40,870 nt of DNA from a virus. Its lineage: Duplodnaviria > Heunggongvirae > Uroviricota > Caudoviricetes. Below, one piece after another: positions 10,399 to 19,046 of the stretch. Below the pieces are notes generated by a model. It saw only the letters and a list, made by a program, of their open reading frames with translations, ran no database searches and had not been told where the DNA came from. A program made the translations under genes and the position numbers. The stretch spans positions 1 to 40,870 of the IMG/VR virus record IMGVR_UViG_2917413769_000003; one strand, given 5' to 3'. Position 1 is the first letter of the stretch. Every line of letters begins with the position of its first letter.

Positions 10399-10965
10399 TT
10401 AATCTCCGGTGGAAATCGTGACGTTGCCGTCAACGATGGATTTAATGTTGTAAGTACGCACCACTTTGCGGCGAAGCTGCACGTGCAGGTCGTAACGGCG
10501 AACCCACTGGTTATTGATGAGTTCAGGGAAGGGGGTAATATCGCTATAGCTGCCAAGAGACAGACCCAGCCGGTTCAGTTCAGCGTTGTTTTGCTCAATC
10601 GTGATACCGTCGCGAAAAACAGCGGCGTACTGCATCCCCGCCGGACCGTAAAAGGACGCCATCGCAACGAAGGATTCATGCCGCCACAGCTCTGCGTTTT
10701 CATCGGTCTGCCGGGTTGATGCTGGGGTGTTATAACTGGGCCACTCGACAATACCGAATGCGCACCAATTCACGTCGACTGGCATCAATGGTGGCTGGTC
10801 CGGCTGCCAGCGCGGGCGGACTGAGCTATCTGGCAGCCCTGAAACAGCCCGCATCCATCGACTAAGCAACCGGTCGAGATCAGTGTCGTACGCAGGACTA
10901 TCGCTTACTGGTGTCAGCCATCCAGCTTCATTGCTGCTGTTATTGCTCAACTGGAATTCCTCCAT
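10399..10965 (-). CDS. Neck/tail completion protein (hypothetical)
   Basis: ORF track 10399..11010; likelier start at internal Met (MEEFQLSNN...) to limit overlap with upstream gene. Confidence 0.4.
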   Translation of the reverse strand: MEEFQLSNNSSNEAGWLTPVSDSPAYDTDLDRLLSRWMRAVSGLPDSSVRPRWQPDQPPLMPVDVNWCAFGIVEWPSYNTPASTRQTDENAELWRHESFVAMASFYGPAGMQYAAVFRDGITIEQNNAELNRLGLSLGSYSDITPFPELINNQWVRRYDLHVQLRRKVVRTYNIKSIVDGNVTISTGD

Positions 10966-11329
10966 CGAACGGCAGCAGCTCGCAGTGCGCCTGTATAAAA
11001 CCAGCACCATAGGCAGTGTAAGGATCAGCGAATGTCACGCGATAATCCCGGCTCTGATAGGTCACGATATCGGCGTCACGACCAGTCTGCCCCTGCGTCA
11101 GGCGTTCGGTGGTGACCACGAGAATCGCCCCACTGATAACCTGCCCGGATTGCATTCGTCGGTTCTCAAGCGATCGGTCTACGGTGACAACACCAGAAAA
11201 CTGCGTCTTGACCAACTCGTCTGTACCGATGCCGTCCGCATCGATGGTCTGCTGTCGACGAGTCACCCAAAGATTGGTATCGCAGAAATCGGGGTCGAAC
11301 AGGACGTCCGTTACGTCAAGATCCGGCAT
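10940..11329 (-). CDS. Head-tail joining protein (hypothetical)
   Basis: 129 aa ORF in neck region between head and tail modules. Confidence 0.4.
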   Translation of the reverse strand: MPDLDVTDVLFDPDFCDTNLWVTRRQQTIDADGIGTDELVKTQFSGVVTVDRSLENRRMQSGQVISGAILVVTTERLTQGQTGRDADIVTYQSRDYRVTFADPYTAYGAGFIQAHCELLPFDGGIPVEQ

Positions 11330-11864: not shown

Positions 11865-12289
11865 AGCTGGCGACCGCCAGCGCCGAACATAGTAGCTATC
11901 TGGTAAAACTCTGCGCCGTAGCGAGTGTTGTTCCAGAAACCTGCATCAGGATTCAGCGTCATGCTGTTGTCATAGCTGACACTGACTTTATCAACAGATT
12001 TAGAGGACTGGACGCCACTGGCATTACCGCCAGAGCCACCGGCCGCCGCAGAACGCTGGTCCTGCGCAAACAACGTCATGTAATGAGCGACATAAAGCTC
12101 GACAATGTAGGGATACATAGTCGGGCCATAGAGGCTTTCATTTAGCATGACGTCGGCCAGATTCAGCCGAAACTGGATCTGAGCATCAGGATATTTGGTG
12201 GTATCAGCGAACTGCGGGAAGTCGGTGCGAAATTTACTTACGGTTGGCAGGTCCGGATTTTTCGGCATTTTTATCCCCTTCGCCGCCAA
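11861..12289 (-). CDS. Head-tail connector protein (DUF4054-like)
   Basis: 142 aa ORF downstream of capsid genes; start may be at internal Met (MPKNPDLP). Confidence 0.45.
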
Positions 12290-15323: not shown

Positions 15324-16106
15324 TTATGCTGCCCTTTTCATGGCGAATGGAACGCGAGCAAACACGATCTCTTTGTAGCAGCGACAATTCGGTAATTCGC
15401 CAGCATGACCGGTCATGCCATCCAGAGTTGGAGGCTTGCCCCACTCAACGAATTTCCCTTCCATCTCGGCATGCGAGTGCCTGACGTCGCCATCGTCCGC
15501 GGTGCGCCAGATGTATCCAATTGAGCCAATAGCAACCGCGCGAGACATATCCAGCGCGCCAGTGGCCCTCCCCAGCTCGGTTCGGGCTATCAGGTCGGCG
15601 CGCGACTTTGCAACATCACCAGTAGAAGCAATTTCTTTGGCAAACTGCTCAGCCAGGCCGCCGGTCACGACGGCCTCGATCGCTTTGTTCTGGATTTCAT
15701 ACACCCTGTCCGCGGCCTCAAGGGGTAGCGATTTGATGTACTTGACCTGTTCAGCAATGATGGATTGCATCACCTGGCCCACAGGAGCGCTTTCCACCAG
15801 ATTGCGGAGCTCGCGACTGATGTTCTTGCTGTGCTGCCGCCAAACTTTGTCGTTCTGCCGGGTTAGGTCCGCAGTGAATGACTCCGCCACCTTAGTCGCC
15901 CAAGGCGTTATGATTTCGCTATAACGCTCCAGGGCTTCCATGATTTCTGTGACGCTGTCATTTGAACCATCGTAGCGGCCATTTACGATGTCGCCGACCG
16001 TCCGCGCTATCTTGCGTAGGCTGGTTCGATATCGGATCTCCGCTTGCCGACTCTGGCTTCGGGTTTTCAAGTTCGCCGAGGCCTGGAGGCGCTTCGTCTT
16101 CGGCAT
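15324..16106 (-). CDS. Head morphogenesis protein (Mu gpF / SPP1 gp7-like)
   Basis: ORF track 15324..16151; start at Met16 (MPKTKRLQ) assumed; still overlaps the portal 3' end (15958), start uncertain. Confidence 0.55.
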   Translation of the reverse strand: MPKTKRLQASANLKTRSQSRQAEIRYRTSLRKIARTVGDIVNGRYDGSNDSVTEIMEALERYSEIITPWATKVAESFTADLTRQNDKVWRQHSKNISRELRNLVESAPVGQVMQSIIAEQVKYIKSLPLEAADRVYEIQNKAIEAVVTGGLAEQFAKEIASTGDVAKSRADLIARTELGRATGALDMSRAVAIGSIGYIWRTADDGDVRHSHAEMEGKFVEWGKPPTLDGMTGHAGELPNCRCYKEIVFARVPFAMKRAA

Positions 16107-17424
16107 TCTCGATATCCTCATCGGTGATTGATGCGCCGATGCCAGTAACATCGGAAGTTTCGCGCAGATCAGTCATTGCGGCTTTAGGTGTCATCAATCC
16201 CGCATCCTGCGCGGCGGTGATTGCATTTACCGTATTAACAGCAACAGTTGAACGATCGACATCAGACATCTGCCAGAGAGGATTAAACTCAAACGTAAAA
16301 TCTTCAGGTAGTGGCTGCTCAAGCTCAGAACGGTAAATTACGTCAAGAATCCTGCGCAACGGCTGCCTCAGGCGGCGTTCCTGAAGTGAGCCCACCCGGT
16401 CGTAGTAGTTAGCGAGGTCGGCGTCACCAGTGGAGAACCCCTTCGGTGACTGCCCGAACAGACGCACCAAGGGGATGCCCACTGCGCCGCTGATTTGTTC
16501 AGCAAACTGCGCGAGGATGTCATCCAGCCCCGCAAAGCTGTACTGATGGGTTTCGAAGGTGTCAGCGTTATCTTTGAGGGTCATCCCCTCATTGCTCTGA
16601 AACTGCCGAATCAGGTCTATTTGCTTCAGCAGAGCGTCGTAGGCCGGGCCGCCGAAGGCAATCAGTTCCCTGAGCTTGTCCACGCCGTAGGTACGCAGGT
16701 GAGCTTTATAGACGAGCTGCCCGGCGCCCATAGTCGCGCTGTCAAAAATAGTGAGCCTGTCCCAGATACGCTCCACAACGGACATGCCCCATTCGTTCTC
16801 GGTCATCTTCTGCTGAAAAGGCAGCGTGACGCCGTCAAATCGAATCAGGCGGCTGTGATGGATACGCCAGGAGGGGATACCTGTCGCGGTGGTCACCACG
16901 TCATAAAATTCAGGTTTACCCAGGTCCGGCCCCATCTCTTTGATGCGGCGGGTCAGTACCGGGTTGATCATCCAGCGGTCCAGCGGCAGGATGCCTTTAA
17001 ATTTGCCTTTGCCGATGGTCTCCAGCCGGAGCGGTGTCATCGGTGCCTGGCCTTCGATCATGATGAAGCCAACCGCACCGCCGTAGAGACGCGACCACTT
17101 CAGCACGTCGTTGAGGGCGTCCCACAGCTGCAGATCGTCAAACTGAGACTCAATAATGCCGCGGTCTTTTGCATCAATTTCAGAGGTGATGCGAATCCCC
17201 TTACGGGTCATGTCGTCCGGTATGGCATCAACCGCCTCGCCAACAATCCACGACGAGCGATACGCCCACTCCACCAGCAGCCGGTTGCGGCTGGTAAAGT
17301 TCGGTCGATACGTTGACGCTGCATGCTGGTTAGGTGCTTGCATCCCCACCCGGGCGACAAAGTTCTCAATGCTGTCAGCGGTAGCAACTGCTTTCCGCTG
17401 GCCGCCTTGCTTTTGTTTCGCCAT
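15958..17424 (-). CDS. Portal protein (DUF1073-like)
   Basis: 488 aa ORF immediately downstream of terminase large subunit (start overlaps TerL stop). Confidence 0.7.
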   Translation of the reverse strand: MAKQKQGGQRKAVATADSIENFVARVGMQAPNQHAASTYRPNFTSRNRLLVEWAYRSSWIVGEAVDAIPDDMTRKGIRITSEIDAKDRGIIESQFDDLQLWDALNDVLKWSRLYGGAVGFIMIEGQAPMTPLRLETIGKGKFKGILPLDRWMINPVLTRRIKEMGPDLGKPEFYDVVTTATGIPSWRIHHSRLIRFDGVTLPFQQKMTENEWGMSVVERIWDRLTIFDSATMGAGQLVYKAHLRTYGVDKLRELIAFGGPAYDALLKQIDLIRQFQSNEGMTLKDNADTFETHQYSFAGLDDILAQFAEQISGAVGIPLVRLFGQSPKGFSTGDADLANYYDRVGSLQERRLRQPLRRILDVIYRSELEQPLPEDFTFEFNPLWQMSDVDRSTVAVNTVNAITAAQDAGLMTPKAAMTDLRETSDVTGIGASITDEDIENAEDEAPPGLGELENPKPESASGDPISNQPTQDSADGRRHRKWPLRWFK

Positions 17425-19046
17425 TACGCCTGTCTCCCGAGTCTTTCCCAGATATTCAGTGCCGCATTCATCGGCGCATAGTTGATCATCACTGAGTCAG
17501 CATTGTTCGGCGACTTCGTGCCGTCAGGCTGTTTATCAATAACCATCTTGCCGACGCCATTGATGGAGAACGTCGGCTGCGACAGCTCAGTGACCAGTTT
17601 GTCCAGGCAGGAAATACTGCTGGAAAGAGAGATTATTTCGTCGGGGTTGTAGGGTTTGCCCTCTACCACCGCGCGATAAACGTTGCGGAACAGCTTGCGT
17701 AAATGCCACCAGCTCTGCGCTTTGGCATTTGCAAAGAAATCCTTGTTCAGGCGAGCCGCCCGGGCGTTGTCTCCCGGTACGGCTTCCCCCTCGGGGTCAA
17801 ACACCGAACCACTGCCGCGGAACGGCGTGGCGAGAATAGCCGGGCGGCGATTCGCTCTGCGCTGTTCGTTGATAACCCTTGCATCGCCGCGAGCACCAGC
17901 CCCCAGGCCATCCTCATCGAACCGCAGTTCTTCGGCTGCAGCCATATCGCAAAGACCAAAGGCCCGCTCAACAGTGGAAAAAATATCGCTGCCCTTGCCA
18001 GACCATTCCTGGACATCTTCCAGCAGGAAGCCGTAGCGGGATGAGTAGGAGTTTTTGTCCCGGCCTTCATCGGCGATATCCAGCGCGCCCTGGCGTCGGC
18101 CAGTTGGCTTAATGCCAAGCTTGATATGCGCATCGATAGCCGCCTGCACCCACTCGGCGGGGATGAGAACACCTTCAGCAGATGCGGAGTAGTTCAAATC
18201 CAGCTCTTGAGCGACAACAACCGGATTGTCGATTTTGTCGCATTCGTTGCGGTACCACTCGTCATCCTTGCGCGGATCGCTGCGCCAGTGGAATGTAAAG
18301 ACAGGTATTTTGCCGCCGTGGCGTTTCTGGGCGAACGGGTTGCCCATACCGTTGACAGAAGAGAGATCAATACGACAACGGGTGGTTTGGGACAGCGCCG
18401 CGTCAATCAGCAACGGGCGCTGCAGGAAGGCTGATTCATCCACAAAGTAGAGTGTGGAACGGTCACCACGGCCAATGTTATCGCCAGCTTCGCCTTTGAT
18501 AATGGCCCCAGTACCCGGGAACTCCACCTGCATAAAACGTGAATCTTTCTTCTCATTCCAGCCACCGCGAAACTCAGCTGGCAGCGTTTCAATGAATTTT
18601 CTCGCTTTCCAGAAAAGCGCTTTAGGATCAGCGGTACTGTCGACGTATTCTTCTTTACGGGAGCCGAAACCAATCACCATCTCTTTATTGAAAAGGCAGA
18701 GAGCGCAGGACATCCCGATCGCCGTCCAGCTAAGGCCCATTTCGCGGGATTTCTCGGTGATCCCGTTCTCGCGATTACCCCAGCGGTCCATAATCCAGTG
18801 GATCCACTCTTCCTGTTTTGGGAAGAGCAAAAACGGGATAGTCACCGGCAAGCCGTAGTCGAGGTTACGCGGGTCAGTTGTCATCCCCCAGTCAATGATG
18901 AACTGGCCGGGGTTATTGCGGTAGTACGTCTTCAGGGTCGCCAGCATGGCAGGGTCTTTGCGGATCCTCTCCAGCCGCTCCATTCGCCATTCGAAAACCT
19001 GCACGTAATCAGGCTTTTTGAAATCAAAAGGAAACGGTAAAGGCAT
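17424..19046 (-). CDS. Terminase large subunit
   Basis: 540 aa ORF following small terminase; size and position typical; contains acidic nuclease-like motifs (LYFVDESAF). Confidence 0.8.

What the first reader, a model, noticed from the sequence alone, without database searches (positions are those of the whole stretch)
15958..16151. Large overlap between portal 3' end and head-morphogenesis 5' end
The portal ORF ends at 15958 while the head-morphogenesis ORF is open from 16151 (nearest Met codons at 16151, 16121 and 16106), an overlap of 150 to 190 nt. The portal C-terminal tail (…GRRHRKWPLRWFK) is unusually basic. This could be a genuine overlap, a mis-set start or a frameshift artefact.
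Basis: seen in the sequence. Interest (0 to 1): 0.2.

Follow-up and report, generated by a model that had tools for sequence, protein, structure and literature searches.

The report
Conserved portal–MuF dual-coding gene overlap
The last 49 codons of this prophage's portal gene and the first 50 codons of the next gene (a MuF-type minor head protein) are written in the same 149 bases in two reading frames; this is a real, conserved and selected arrangement in hundreds of related phages, not an error, but it is an ordinary kind of phage gene overlap.

Summary
On the minus strand the portal gene (17424..15958) and the MuF-type head-morphogenesis ORF share sequence in different frames (MuF = portal +1). 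It is a genuine overlap, not a mis-set start or a frameshift artefact. The same overlap (149 or 152 nt) is present in 84 of 85 entries of the Escherichia/Salmonella clade and 80 of 80 loci of a Klebsiella clade whose MuF is only 49% identical. It is also present in Morganella, Xenorhabdus and Pantoea prophages, with other lengths in Burkholderia, Acinetobacter and Aggregatibacter phages. Third-codon-position diversity collapses in both frames exactly between the MuF ATG and the portal stop, so both frames are under purifying selection. The most likely MuF start is ATG 16106: GAGGA lies 8 nt upstream, the start codon is universally kept, and the constraint begins there. ATG 16151 and 16121 are not conserved. 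PGAP's choice, TTG 16070, is the main alternative. The shared bases encode a predicted disordered portal tail ending in a near-invariant LRWF. MuF codons TAC-GAT-GGT are frozen at synonymous sites to keep it. The inferred mechanism is independent internal initiation of MuF inside the portal reading frame. Interest is low to moderate; this is a new member of a known kind.

The parts
15958..17424 (-). Portal gene (Phage_portal_3/DUF1073 family), 488 aa, stop TGA 15960..15958
   Evidence: ORF. Pfam PF06381 E=7e-105. PDB sequence hits to Pam3, E217 gp19 and Pa193 gp19 portals up to residue ~451-462. The exact protein is WP_135494899.1 of Escherichia sp. E1130.
15324..16106 (-). MuF-type (SPP1 gp7 family) head-morphogenesis/minor capsid gene, 260 aa from the conserved ATG 16106
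   Evidence: Pfam PF04233 E=1e-17. The ATG is present in all related loci, and in 13 loci the frame opens only one codon before it. N-terminal residues 22-50 are conserved at amino-acid level down to 26% identity.
15958..16106 (-). 149-nt dual-coding overlap: portal codons 440-488 plus stop, and MuF codons 1-50 (MuF frame = portal +1)
   Evidence: Third-position diversity drops in both frames only here. Portal pos3 is 0.072 vs 0.247 outside; MuF pos3 is 0.129 vs 0.325 outside. Fisher p=2e-16 and 6e-12. Replicated in the Klebsiella clade.
16115..16119 (-). Shine-Dalgarno GAGGA, 8 nt upstream of ATG 16106, embedded in portal codons D-E-D (GAT GAG GAT)
   Evidence: Read from sequence. The portal Glu codon is always GAG, never GAA, across clades (AAG in 7 loci still gives AAGGA), while neighbouring synonymous sites vary.
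16104..16106 (-). MuF start codon ATG, formed by portal codons AAT-GCC (N-A of the motif DEDIENA)
   Evidence: The Asn codon is always AAT. Where the portal residue changes (N->D GAT; N->S AGT), a MuF-frame ATG or GTG is still kept. Constraint on portal-synonymous sites begins here: 3/12 variable vs 29/36 just upstream, and 3/12 vs 33/36 in the Klebsiella clade.
16068..16070 (-). Alternative start TTG (MuF codon 13), the one used by NCBI PGAP in the source record (248-aa product, 113-nt overlap)
   Evidence: gene called at L225 3855..4601. TTG at codon 13 or ATG at codon 14 is present in all 30 unique Escherichia/Salmonella sequences but not in the Klebsiella clade. No good SD upstream (sequence).
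15957..16043 (-). Conserved MuF N-terminal core (residues 22-50, AEIRYRTSLRKIARTVGDIVNGRYDGSND), lying almost entirely inside the portal ORF
   Evidence: Alignment A1: Y45 D46 G47 S48 N49 S51 are invariant. The homologous motif is seen in Klebsiella, Burkholderia, Acinetobacter and Aaphi23 phages.
15964..15975 (-). Portal C-terminal motif L-R-W-F, read from the same bases as MuF R-Y-D-G-S
   Evidence: R485 and W486 invariant, L484 and F487 at least 90% conserved in 51 portals of 58-94% identity; tails listed. MuF codons are TAC GAT GGT in every clade. The only exception is Arsenophonus L085, whose portal is a frameshifted pseudogene.
15939..15941 (-). Downstream ATG (MuF residue 56, MEALERY...), 16 nt after the portal stop, used by overlap-avoiding annotations; rejected as the start
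   Evidence: SEN34 and Logan gene calls. Rejected because 55 upstream codons are conserved as protein and constrain portal-synonymous sites.

Best explanation
This is a genuine, evolutionarily conserved out-of-frame gene overlap inside a prophage head-assembly operon (terS-terL-portal-MuF-DUF2213/Pa193_gp24-cement-major capsid). Shown: the portal gene is read through to TGA 15960..15958. The MuF-type minor head protein gene is in the +1 frame, and its conserved protein sequence begins well inside the portal gene. Both frames are under purifying selection across the shared 149 nt. Most likely (inferred from conservation, not from expression data): MuF is initiated independently at ATG 16106 by ribosomes binding the GAGGA at 16119..16115. 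Both signals are built from the portal codons of the conserved motif D-E-D-I-E-N-A. Initiation by termination-reinitiation is unlikely, because the portal stop lies 149 nt downstream of the MuF start. The shared bases encode two things: a predicted disordered, acidic-then-basic portal C-terminal tail ending in LRWF, and the basic N-terminus plus first conserved helix of MuF. The pattern of constraint suggests mutual overprinting. The first ~16 MuF codons are laid over ancestral portal tail sequence, where the portal frame dominates. The last ~28 portal codons are laid over ancestral MuF N-terminal sequence, where the MuF frame dominates. Inferred consequences: portal-translating ribosomes run across the MuF ribosome-binding site, so MuF output is tied to portal translation and probably kept below it. 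That would fit a protein needed in only a few copies per portal dodecamer. The two genes also cannot be separated by recombination without damaging both.
For: Conservation: overlap of 149/152 nt in 84 of 85 entries of the window's clade and 80/80 of the Klebsiella clade. Also 149 nt in Morganella, Xenorhabdus, Pantoea and Klebsiella ST340 phage; 170-176 nt in Burkholderia Magia; 74-107 nt in Acinetobacter BUCTT20; 74-80 nt in Aaphi23. The offset is +1 in every one of these. Selection: pos3 diversity is portal-only 0.247 and MuF-only 0.325, against 0.072 and 0.129 in the overlap, with Fisher p=2e-16 and 6e-12. The Klebsiella clade gives 0.305/0.307 against 0.032/0.111. OLGenie-like ratios are portal 0.23 (CI 0.07-0.49) and MuF 0.12 (0.03-0.29). 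MuF-synonymous changes in the overlap accumulate at 0.19/0.16 against dS 0.45/0.44 outside; portal-synonymous changes at 0.099/0.029 against 0.35/0.40. Frozen synonymous sites: TAC-GAT-GGT (portal RWF) in all clades except the one locus with a broken portal. Start site: GAG and AAT codons fixed, start codon kept through portal amino-acid changes, and constraint begins at the ATG. Upstream Mets are not conserved, and in 13 loci the frame opens 3 nt before the ATG. Portal residues 444-488 have pLDDT below 50 and no secondary structure. No promoter, terminator or significant RNA structure at the junction. Literature: muf genes lie immediately downstream of portal genes, and SPP1 gp7 binds the portal at 1-2 copies per capsid (PMC5576092).
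Against: There is no direct expression evidence: no proteomics or ribosome profiling for either end. Conservation of GAGGA and ATG is partly confounded, because they are also codons of a conserved portal motif. The first 12-16 MuF codons are poorly conserved as protein, and PGAP places the start at TTG 16070. A start codon at MuF codon 13/14 is present in all 30 unique sequences of the window's clade. The OLGenie-like ratio for the portal frame is not significant in the Klebsiella clade (0.97, CI 0.30-4.5). Sequences within clades are related, so site counts are not independent events. The stoichiometry and anti-recombination consequences are inference only.
Confidence: 0.85

Rival explanations
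1. The overlap is genuine, but MuF starts at TTG 16070 (as NCBI PGAP annotates, 248 aa). The overlap is then 113 nt, and ATG 16106 and GAGGA are conserved only because they are portal codons.
For: PGAP call in the source record. Many NCBI homologues are annotated at the equivalent codon 13/14 (244/245/248 aa). TTG13 or ATG14 is present in 30/30 unique sequences of the window's clade. MuF residues 1-12 are weakly conserved as protein.
Against: There is no start codon at that position in the Klebsiella clade (at most 1 of 38 unique sequences), although it keeps the overlap. No SD precedes TTG 16070. Portal-synonymous sites are already constrained over MuF codons 1-12: 3/12 variable vs 29/36 and 33/36 just upstream. 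The start codon at 16106 is retained as ATG or GTG even when the portal residue changes, and GAG/AAT are never replaced by synonymous GAA/AAC.
Confidence: 0.12
2. Mis-set start: MuF really begins after the portal stop (ATG 15941, MEALERY...), as annotated for SEN34 and by overlap-avoiding gene callers, and there is no dual coding.
For: SEN34 and 606R2 GenBank annotations and Logan gene calls start downstream. The Pfam MuF domain itself only covers residues 152-258 of the 275-aa ORF.
Against: The 55 upstream codons are conserved as protein to 26-49% identity relatives, including an invariant YDGSNDS. Portal third positions lose their variability there. dSN is 0.07-0.28 of portal dS. Jedunavirus KB2 has the same N-terminal region without any portal overlap.
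Confidence: 0.02
3. Frameshift artefact or pseudogene: a sequencing or assembly indel, or a real mutation in this strain, created the apparent overlap or the odd basic portal tail.
For: Frameshifted versions do exist in public data: four singleton portal-MuF fusion ORFs, and broken portals in L010 and Arsenophonus L085.
Against: The window's arrangement is the majority state in more than 160 independent loci and more than 100 protein clusters from many genera, with identical frame relation and conserved tail. The exact portal protein occurs on several independent contigs. The fusions have four different junctions and are singletons.
Confidence: 0.01
4. Programmed +1 (or -2) ribosomal frameshifting in the overlap makes a minor portal-MuF fusion protein that delivers MuF into the portal ring, in addition to the separate products.
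For: Any +1 shift inside the 149 nt gives a continuous ~696-aa portal-MuF ORF, as the accidental fusions show. MuF-type proteins bind portals at low copy number (PMC5576092).
Against: MuF has its own conserved SD and start. No significant RNA structure (z=0.31). The portal stop context is not conserved: TGA at 149 nt, TAG at 152 nt, and ...RWFTGKR* in Klebsiella. The natural fusions have four different junctions, so there is no shared slip site. Overlap length varies from none to ~176 nt in the wider family.
Confidence: 0.03

Closest known systems
Lambda Rz/Rz1-type two-component spanin genes (embedded / overlapped / separated architectures; Kongari et al. 2018, PMC6139136)
   Same: This is a long same-strand out-of-frame overlap in a phage in which both frames encode functional proteins. 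The second gene is in the +1 frame with its own internal SD and start. The extent of overlap varies between phage lineages from none to extensive; here the portal stop lies from -89 to +104 nt relative to MuF Tyr26. The two products belong to one structure (spanin complex there; portal and portal-associated MuF here, the latter by analogy with SPP1 gp7).
   Different: Here only the gene ends overlap (49-50 codons), not a whole embedded gene. The genes are head-assembly genes rather than lysis genes. A physical interaction of these two particular proteins is not shown.
SPP1 gene 6 (portal) - gene 7 (MuF/gp7) module, and the general rule that muf genes lie immediately downstream of portal genes (Jamet et al. 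2017, PMC5576092)
   Same: Same gene order and the same MuF family (PF04233), within a terminase-portal-MuF-scaffold-capsid operon.
   Different: The portal belongs to a different Pfam family (Phage_portal_3/DUF1073). A conserved long dual-coding junction is not described in that literature. SPP1's own junction was not examined here.
Ordinary 1-4 nt start/stop overlaps (ATGA, TAATG) used for translational coupling in phage morphogenesis operons
   Same: Tight packing of co-transcribed structural genes. The neighbouring terL/portal junction in this window shares one base at 17424.
   Different: Here the downstream start lies 149 nt upstream of the upstream stop. Termination-reinitiation coupling therefore cannot operate, and about 49 codons must satisfy two proteins at once.
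Viral overprinted (de novo) overlapping regions that encode intrinsically disordered protein segments (Willis & Masel, bioRxiv 10.1101/229690; Pavesi 2021, PMC8227390)
   Same: The portal part of the overlap is predicted disordered (pLDDT below 50 from residue 444). Each frame dominates a different half of the overlap, as expected when each gene end was extended over the other.
   Different: No new gene was created. Two old genes extended their termini over each other, and the MuF half of the overlap is a conserved, probably helical segment rather than disordered.

Membership tests
Phage portal protein, Phage_portal_3 (PF06381, formerly DUF1073) | Significant match to the family profile over its full length | tested here: met
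   E=7.4e-105, 351 bits vs cutoff 33.8, profile positions 6-356 of 357. Sequence hits to solved portals Pam3, E217 gp19 and Pa193 gp19.
Phage portal protein, Phage_portal_3 (PF06381, formerly DUF1073) | Position between the large terminase and head-assembly genes | tested here: met
   terS-terL-portal-MuF-DUF2213-cement-MCP order in the window and relatives.
MuF / SPP1 gp7 head-morphogenesis (minor capsid) protein, PF04233 | Significant match to the Phage_Mu_F profile | tested here: met
   E=1.1e-17, 65.3 bits vs cutoff 29.6.
MuF / SPP1 gp7 head-morphogenesis (minor capsid) protein, PF04233 | Gene immediately downstream of the portal gene | tested here: met
   rule stated in PMC5576092.
MuF / SPP1 gp7 head-morphogenesis (minor capsid) protein, PF04233 | Binds the portal and is packaged at low copy number | not testable with these tools
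   Known only for SPP1 gp7 (PMC5576092). No solved homologue, and the AF2 model is poor (pLDDT 52).
Genuine dual-coding (out-of-frame) overlapping gene pair | Both reading frames stay open over the overlap in diverged relatives | tested here: met
   84 of 85 entries and 80 of 80 loci in two clades, plus Morganella, Xenorhabdus, Pantoea, Burkholderia, Acinetobacter and Aaphi23 relatives.
Genuine dual-coding (out-of-frame) overlapping gene pair | Purifying selection on both frames (suppressed synonymous change in each frame, confined to the overlap) | tested here: met
   Caveat: the OLGenie-like ratio for the portal frame is not significant in the Klebsiella clade (0.97). However, dNS there is 0.16 against dS 0.44 outside, and the RWF-encoding synonymous sites are frozen.
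Genuine dual-coding (out-of-frame) overlapping gene pair | Both protein ends actually produced (N-terminus of the downstream protein, C-terminus of the upstream protein) | not testable with these tools
   No proteomic or ribosome-profiling data found.
Programmed ribosomal frameshift site | Conserved slip site or stop context with a stimulatory RNA structure, and no independent start for the downstream frame | tested here: not met
   Independent SD and ATG are conserved. Fold z=0.31. The stop position and context vary. The accidental fusions have four different junctions.
Termination-reinitiation translational coupling (ATGA/TAATG type) | Upstream stop within a few nt of the downstream start | tested here: not met
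   The portal stop (15958) lies 149 nt downstream of the MuF start (16106).

The most novel reading that the evidence does not exclude
The portal's disordered C-terminal tail, with its near-invariant basic-LRWF end, is itself a functional element, for example a docking peptide for MuF, the scaffold or DNA inside the procapsid. Because it is encoded by the same nucleotides as the first conserved helix of MuF, the two partners would be genetically interlocked. They would have to co-evolve base by base and could not be swapped independently by the mosaic recombination typical of phage head modules. The evidence shows constraint on the tail (about 0.4 of the neutral rate; frozen TAC-GAT-GGT). It does not show what the tail does.
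Probability: 0.2. Interest if true: 0.5.

Novelty: new member of a known kind. Interest (0 to 1): 0.3.

Why it matters
There are three practical points.

1. **Annotation.** Public databases give this MuF gene at least five different starts (257/260, 244-248, 221-226, 202-205 and 176 aa). Many of these cut off a conserved N-terminal segment in order to avoid the overlap. The comparative evidence fixes the start and shows that automatic overlap avoidance is wrong here.

2. **Engineering and interpretation.** Any mutation, deletion or recoding in 15958..16106 changes two virion proteins at once. Single-base indels there create portal-MuF fusions, as seen in public assemblies.

3. **Evolution.** This is a clean, well-replicated example of a long out-of-frame overlap in a tailed phage with selection on both frames, and the overlap length varies along the family. 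That makes it useful as a test case for methods that detect dual coding. It is not a new mechanism.

Tried and rejected
- **RNA structure as the cause of synonymous constraint.** The fold of 16050..16190 is no better than shuffles (z=0.31). Rejected.
- **Internal promoter or terminator at the junction.** None found.
- **Upstream Mets 16151/16121 as starts.** They are present in only 9/30 and 1/30 unique relatives, and 13 loci have a stop two codons before the conserved ATG. Rejected.
- **Solved structure for MuF.** No PDB sequence hit.
- **AF2 model of MuF from a 17-sequence alignment.** Low confidence (pLDDT 52, N-terminus below 50), so not used for inference beyond 'predicted helical'. No fold search was run on it.
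- **OLGenie-like test.** Inconclusive for the portal frame in the Klebsiella clade. Replaced by comparison with flanking dS and by codon-level evidence.
- **Literature searches for a description of this overlap or for proteomics of SEN34-like phages.** Nothing found.
- **Other apparent long overlaps in the window (10940..11010; 12234..12289).** These look like maximal-ORF artefacts, because the Pfam domains start at residues 44 and 20.
- **Portal-MuF fusion ORFs as evidence of programmed frameshifting.** They are singletons with four different junctions. Rejected.
Full report
**1. The observation**

All genes in this part of the window are on the minus strand. The portal ORF runs 17424..15958 (488 aa...GRRHRKWPLRWFK, stop TGA 15960..15958). 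The next ORF is listed as 16151..15324, with in-frame Mets at 16151, 16121 and 16106. Pfam identifies them as Phage_portal_3 (PF06381, E=7e-105) and Phage_Mu_F (PF04233, E=1e-17), followed by a DUF2213/Pa193_gp24 protein.

The MuF frame is the portal frame +1. The overlaps are 194, 164 or 149 nt depending on the Met used.

By itself it is not beyond chance. In this window's genes, a 49-codon stop-free run in the -1 frame is found at about 7% of positions.

**2. Source and public annotation**

The portal protein is identical to WP_135494899.1 of Escherichia sp. E1130. The window has the same coordinates as contig PDIL01000014.1.

- PGAP annotates MuF there from TTG 16070 (248 aa, 113-nt overlap).
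- The Logan gene caller starts it after the portal stop (205 aa).
- The nearest named phages are about 79% identical in DNA: Salmonella phage SEN34 (Brunovirus), Escherichia phage vB_EcoM-606R2 and Citrobacter phage Omnitron.
- Both SEN34 records and the 606R2 record annotate MuF as 202 or 176 aa, avoiding any overlap.
- Across databases the same gene is given lengths of 257, 244/245, 221-226, 202 and 176 aa.

**3. Conservation of the arrangement**

I collected 80 IMG/VR loci with MuF 85-98% identical to the window's. I added 80 loci of a Klebsiella clade whose MuF is 49% identical, 51 diverse metagenomic loci, four genomic loci and five annotated phages.

- In the window's clade, 84 of 85 entries (the window, L001-L004 and L005-L084) have the portal stop 149 or 152 nt after the ATG equivalent to 16106. 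The exception, L010, has a portal broken at residue 329.
- The 152-nt form arises from two changes that are synonymous in MuF. AAT->AAC removes the TGA, and GAC->GAT creates a TAG.
- The Klebsiella clade has 149 nt in 80 of 80 loci.
- Morganella, Xenorhabdus, Pantoea and Klebsiella phage ST340-VIM1phi10.1 also give 149 nt when the ATG after GAGGA is used.
- Burkholderia phage Magia (170-176 nt), Acinetobacter phage BUCTT20 (74-107 nt) and Aaphi23 (74-80 nt) overlap by other lengths, always with MuF in the +1 frame.
- In the wider family the portal stop lies anywhere from 89 nt before to 104 nt after the conserved MuF tyrosine (Tyr26). A few loci have plain adjacency. Jedunavirus KB2 has HNH endonuclease genes inserted between the two genes.

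The junction is habitually overlapped, but the length is lineage-specific.

**4. Both frames are selected**

In 76 unique sequences of the window's clade, diversity at third codon positions was as follows.

| Region | Portal pos3 diversity | % of portal pos3 sites variable | MuF pos3 diversity | % of MuF pos3 sites variable |
|---|---|---|---|---|
| Outside the overlap | 0.247 | 81% | 0.325 | 88% |
| Inside the 149 nt | 0.072 | 22% | 0.129 | 39% |

- Fisher tests give p=2e-16 for the portal and p=6e-12 for MuF.
- The drop begins and ends at the overlap boundaries.
- The independent Klebsiella clade (64 unique sequences) gives 0.305 and 0.307 outside, against 0.032 and 0.111 inside.
- An OLGenie-style partition gives dNN/dSN = 0.23 (bootstrap CI 0.07-0.49) for the portal frame and dNN/dNS = 0.12 (0.03-0.29) for the MuF frame in the window's clade.
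- In the Klebsiella clade the MuF ratio is 0.175 (0.03-0.42). The portal ratio is uninformative (0.97, CI 0.30-4.5) because portal-synonymous changes are almost absent.
- Normalised to the flanks, MuF-synonymous/portal-changing substitutions run at 0.19 and 0.16, against MuF dS of 0.45 and 0.44.
- Portal-synonymous/MuF-changing substitutions run at 0.099 and 0.029, against portal dS of 0.35 and 0.40.

So the portal tail evolves at roughly 0.4 of the neutral rate and the MuF N-terminus at 0.07-0.28.

RNA structure does not explain the constraint (z=0.31). There is no promoter or terminator at the junction.

**5. Codon-level evidence for the portal tail**

The invariant MuF motif Y-D-G-S is encoded as TAC GAT GGT TCA. 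The portal frame reads these bases as (L)R-W-F-K.

In every clade examined (Escherichia/Salmonella, Klebsiella, Morganella, Xenorhabdus) the three codons are TAC, GAT and GGT, although each has synonymous alternatives. TAT would put a TGA in the portal frame.

The only locus with different synonymous codons (GAC, TCG) is Arsenophonus L085. Its portal gene is a frameshifted pseudogene, which makes it a natural control.

Among 51 portals of 58-94% identity, D472, S473, R485 and W486 are invariant, and L484 and F487 are at least 90% conserved. More than 100 cluster representatives share the same tail plan: I(S/T)DEDIxNA, a variable acidic/proline linker, PxSNxPTxDS, a basic stretch, then (L/I)RW(F/L).

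AlphaFold2 with this alignment models the portal core reasonably (mean pLDDT 68). Residues 444-488 have pLDDT below 50 and no secondary structure. The overlapped part of the portal therefore starts about where the predicted fold ends.

**6. Which start?**

- ATG 16106 has GAGGA 8 nt upstream (16119..16115).
- ATG 16151 and ATG 16121 have no SD. They are present in only 9/30 and 1/30 unique relatives.
- In 13 loci the MuF frame opens only one codon before the conserved ATG.
- The SD and ATG are made of portal codons (GAT GAG GAT ATC GAG AAT GCC = D-E-D-I-E-N-A), so their conservation could be a by-product of portal conservation.
- However, the Glu codon is always GAG and the Asn codon always AAT, while neighbouring Asp and Ile codons vary freely.
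- Where the portal residue itself changes, a MuF-frame start survives: N->D gives GAT-G, still ATG, and N->S gives AGT-G, which is GTG.
- Portal-synonymous sites become constrained right at the ATG. Over MuF codons 1-12, 3 of 12 sites are variable, against 29 of 36 just upstream. In the Klebsiella clade the figures are 3 of 12 against 33 of 36.

PGAP's TTG 16070 remains possible. TTG13 or ATG14 exists in all 30 unique sequences of this clade. It lacks an SD, though, and has no counterpart in the Klebsiella clade.

Whatever the start, MuF residues 22-50 (AEIRYRTSLRKIARTVGDIVNGRYDGSND) lie within the portal ORF except for the final base (15957). They are conserved as protein down to 26% identity. 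The overlap is therefore at least about 86 nt.

**7. How it arose (inference)**

Distant solved portals align to the window's portal only up to residue ~451-462. Distant family members often stop there. KB2, which has no overlap, starts MuF at about our residue 17.

Within the overlap the portal frame is the better conserved over MuF codons 1-16. The MuF frame is the better conserved over codons 17-49.

This fits mutual extension. The MuF start moved upstream into the portal's acidic tail, and the portal reading frame ran on over the MuF N-terminal helix. Its basic composition is simply what the -1 frame of ...RKIARTVGDIVNGRYDGSND reads as, subsequently constrained.

**8. How it works (inference)**

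The genes are co-transcribed. The portal stop lies 149 nt downstream of the MuF start, so termination-reinitiation coupling is not available. MuF must be initiated de novo at an SD that is being traversed by portal-translating ribosomes.

This ties MuF synthesis to the portal message. It plausibly keeps MuF below portal levels, in line with the 1-2 copies per capsid reported for SPP1 gp7, which binds the portal (PMC5576092). None of this is shown for this phage.

**9. Rivals**

- A start after the portal stop is contradicted by sections 4 and 6.
- A sequencing or assembly frameshift is contradicted by section 3.
- Programmed frameshifting to a portal-MuF fusion is unlikely. MuF has its own conserved start, there is no structure, and the stop context is not conserved. 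The four portal-MuF fusion ORFs in public data (P0141, P0144, P0158, P0165) are singletons with four different junctions, one of them a microhomology deletion. They do show that any +1 indel in the overlap fuses the two genes.

**10. Comparison with what is known, and verdict**

Long same-strand overlaps with selection on both frames are a known kind in phages. The closest analogy is Rz/Rz1 spanin genes, with their embedded, overlapped and separated architectures (PMC6139136). Overlapping regions are known to be enriched in disorder (bioRxiv 10.1101/229690; PMC8227390).

I found no description of the portal/MuF overlap in the searched literature. It is, however, partly annotated in GenBank records: PGAP 113 nt, Aaphi23 80 nt, Magia 62 nt.

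I rate it a new member of a known kind. It is solidly real and useful for annotation, and modestly interesting biologically. Interest 0.3.

Noticed in passing
Proteins P0141, P0144, P0158, P0165 (relatives of window 15324..17424): Four singleton ORFs of 655-697 aa in public assemblies (three Logan, one NCBI) are portal-MuF fusions. Each switches from the portal frame to the MuF frame at a different point inside the overlap. One (P0165) is a deletion between GATATC/GACATC microhomologies. They are probably sequencing errors or recent mutations.
   Followed up: partly
L085 (Arsenophonus sp., GCA_036919435.1) 1160..2620: The portal gene is a pseudogene: frameshifted at about residue 365, with the tail ending early at ...NPISNEP*. 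MuF is intact. This is the only locus where the MuF Y-D-G-S codons differ synonymously (TAC GAC GGT TCG).
   Followed up: partly
L093 (Klebsiella phage vB_KleM_KB2, Jedunavirus) 934..2135: An HNH endonuclease gene and a small ORF on the opposite strand are inserted between the portal and MuF genes. This distant relative therefore has no overlap; its MuF starts at about residue 17 of the window protein.
   Followed up: no
L091 (Aaphi23) 2144..4546: The MuF homologue is an 800-aa protein, with the MuF region followed by a long C-terminal extension. This is reminiscent of the MuF polymorphic toxins of PMC5576092. The extension was not analysed.
   Followed up: no
L087 (Xenorhabdus poinarii) 925..2613; P0170, P0175, P0176, P0187: Xenorhabdus portals are 554-562 aa. 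A ~70-aa insertion replaces the DEDIxNA/acidic linker, yet they keep the PxxNxSTxDS...LRWFK tail and a 149-nt overlap, with a different SD (GGGGAG) and start context.
   Followed up: partly
window 15958..17424 (names): Some sources name fragments or relatives of this portal 'anti-CBASS Acb1 family protein' or 'Acb1-like N-terminal domain'. Given the portal profile match and PDB portal hits, this looks like a family-naming carry-over rather than a function.
   Followed up: no
window 10940..11010 and 12234..12289 (minus strand): Two other apparent overlaps of 71 and 56 nt appear between maximal ORFs in the neck/tail region. The Pfam domains (neck terminator PF23961, DUF4054) begin at residues 44 and 20 of the downstream ORFs, so these are probably over-extended ORF starts rather than real overlaps.
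   Followed up: partly
window 17424..19046 (minus strand): The 540-aa protein annotated as terminase large subunit in relatives has no Pfam match at E<=0.01. It shares one base (17424) with the portal start.
   Followed up: no
L010 (IMGVR_UViG_2851663924_000002) ~2215: This otherwise 95-98% identical relative has its portal reading frame interrupted after residue 329. It may be a defective prophage or an assembly error.
   Followed up: no
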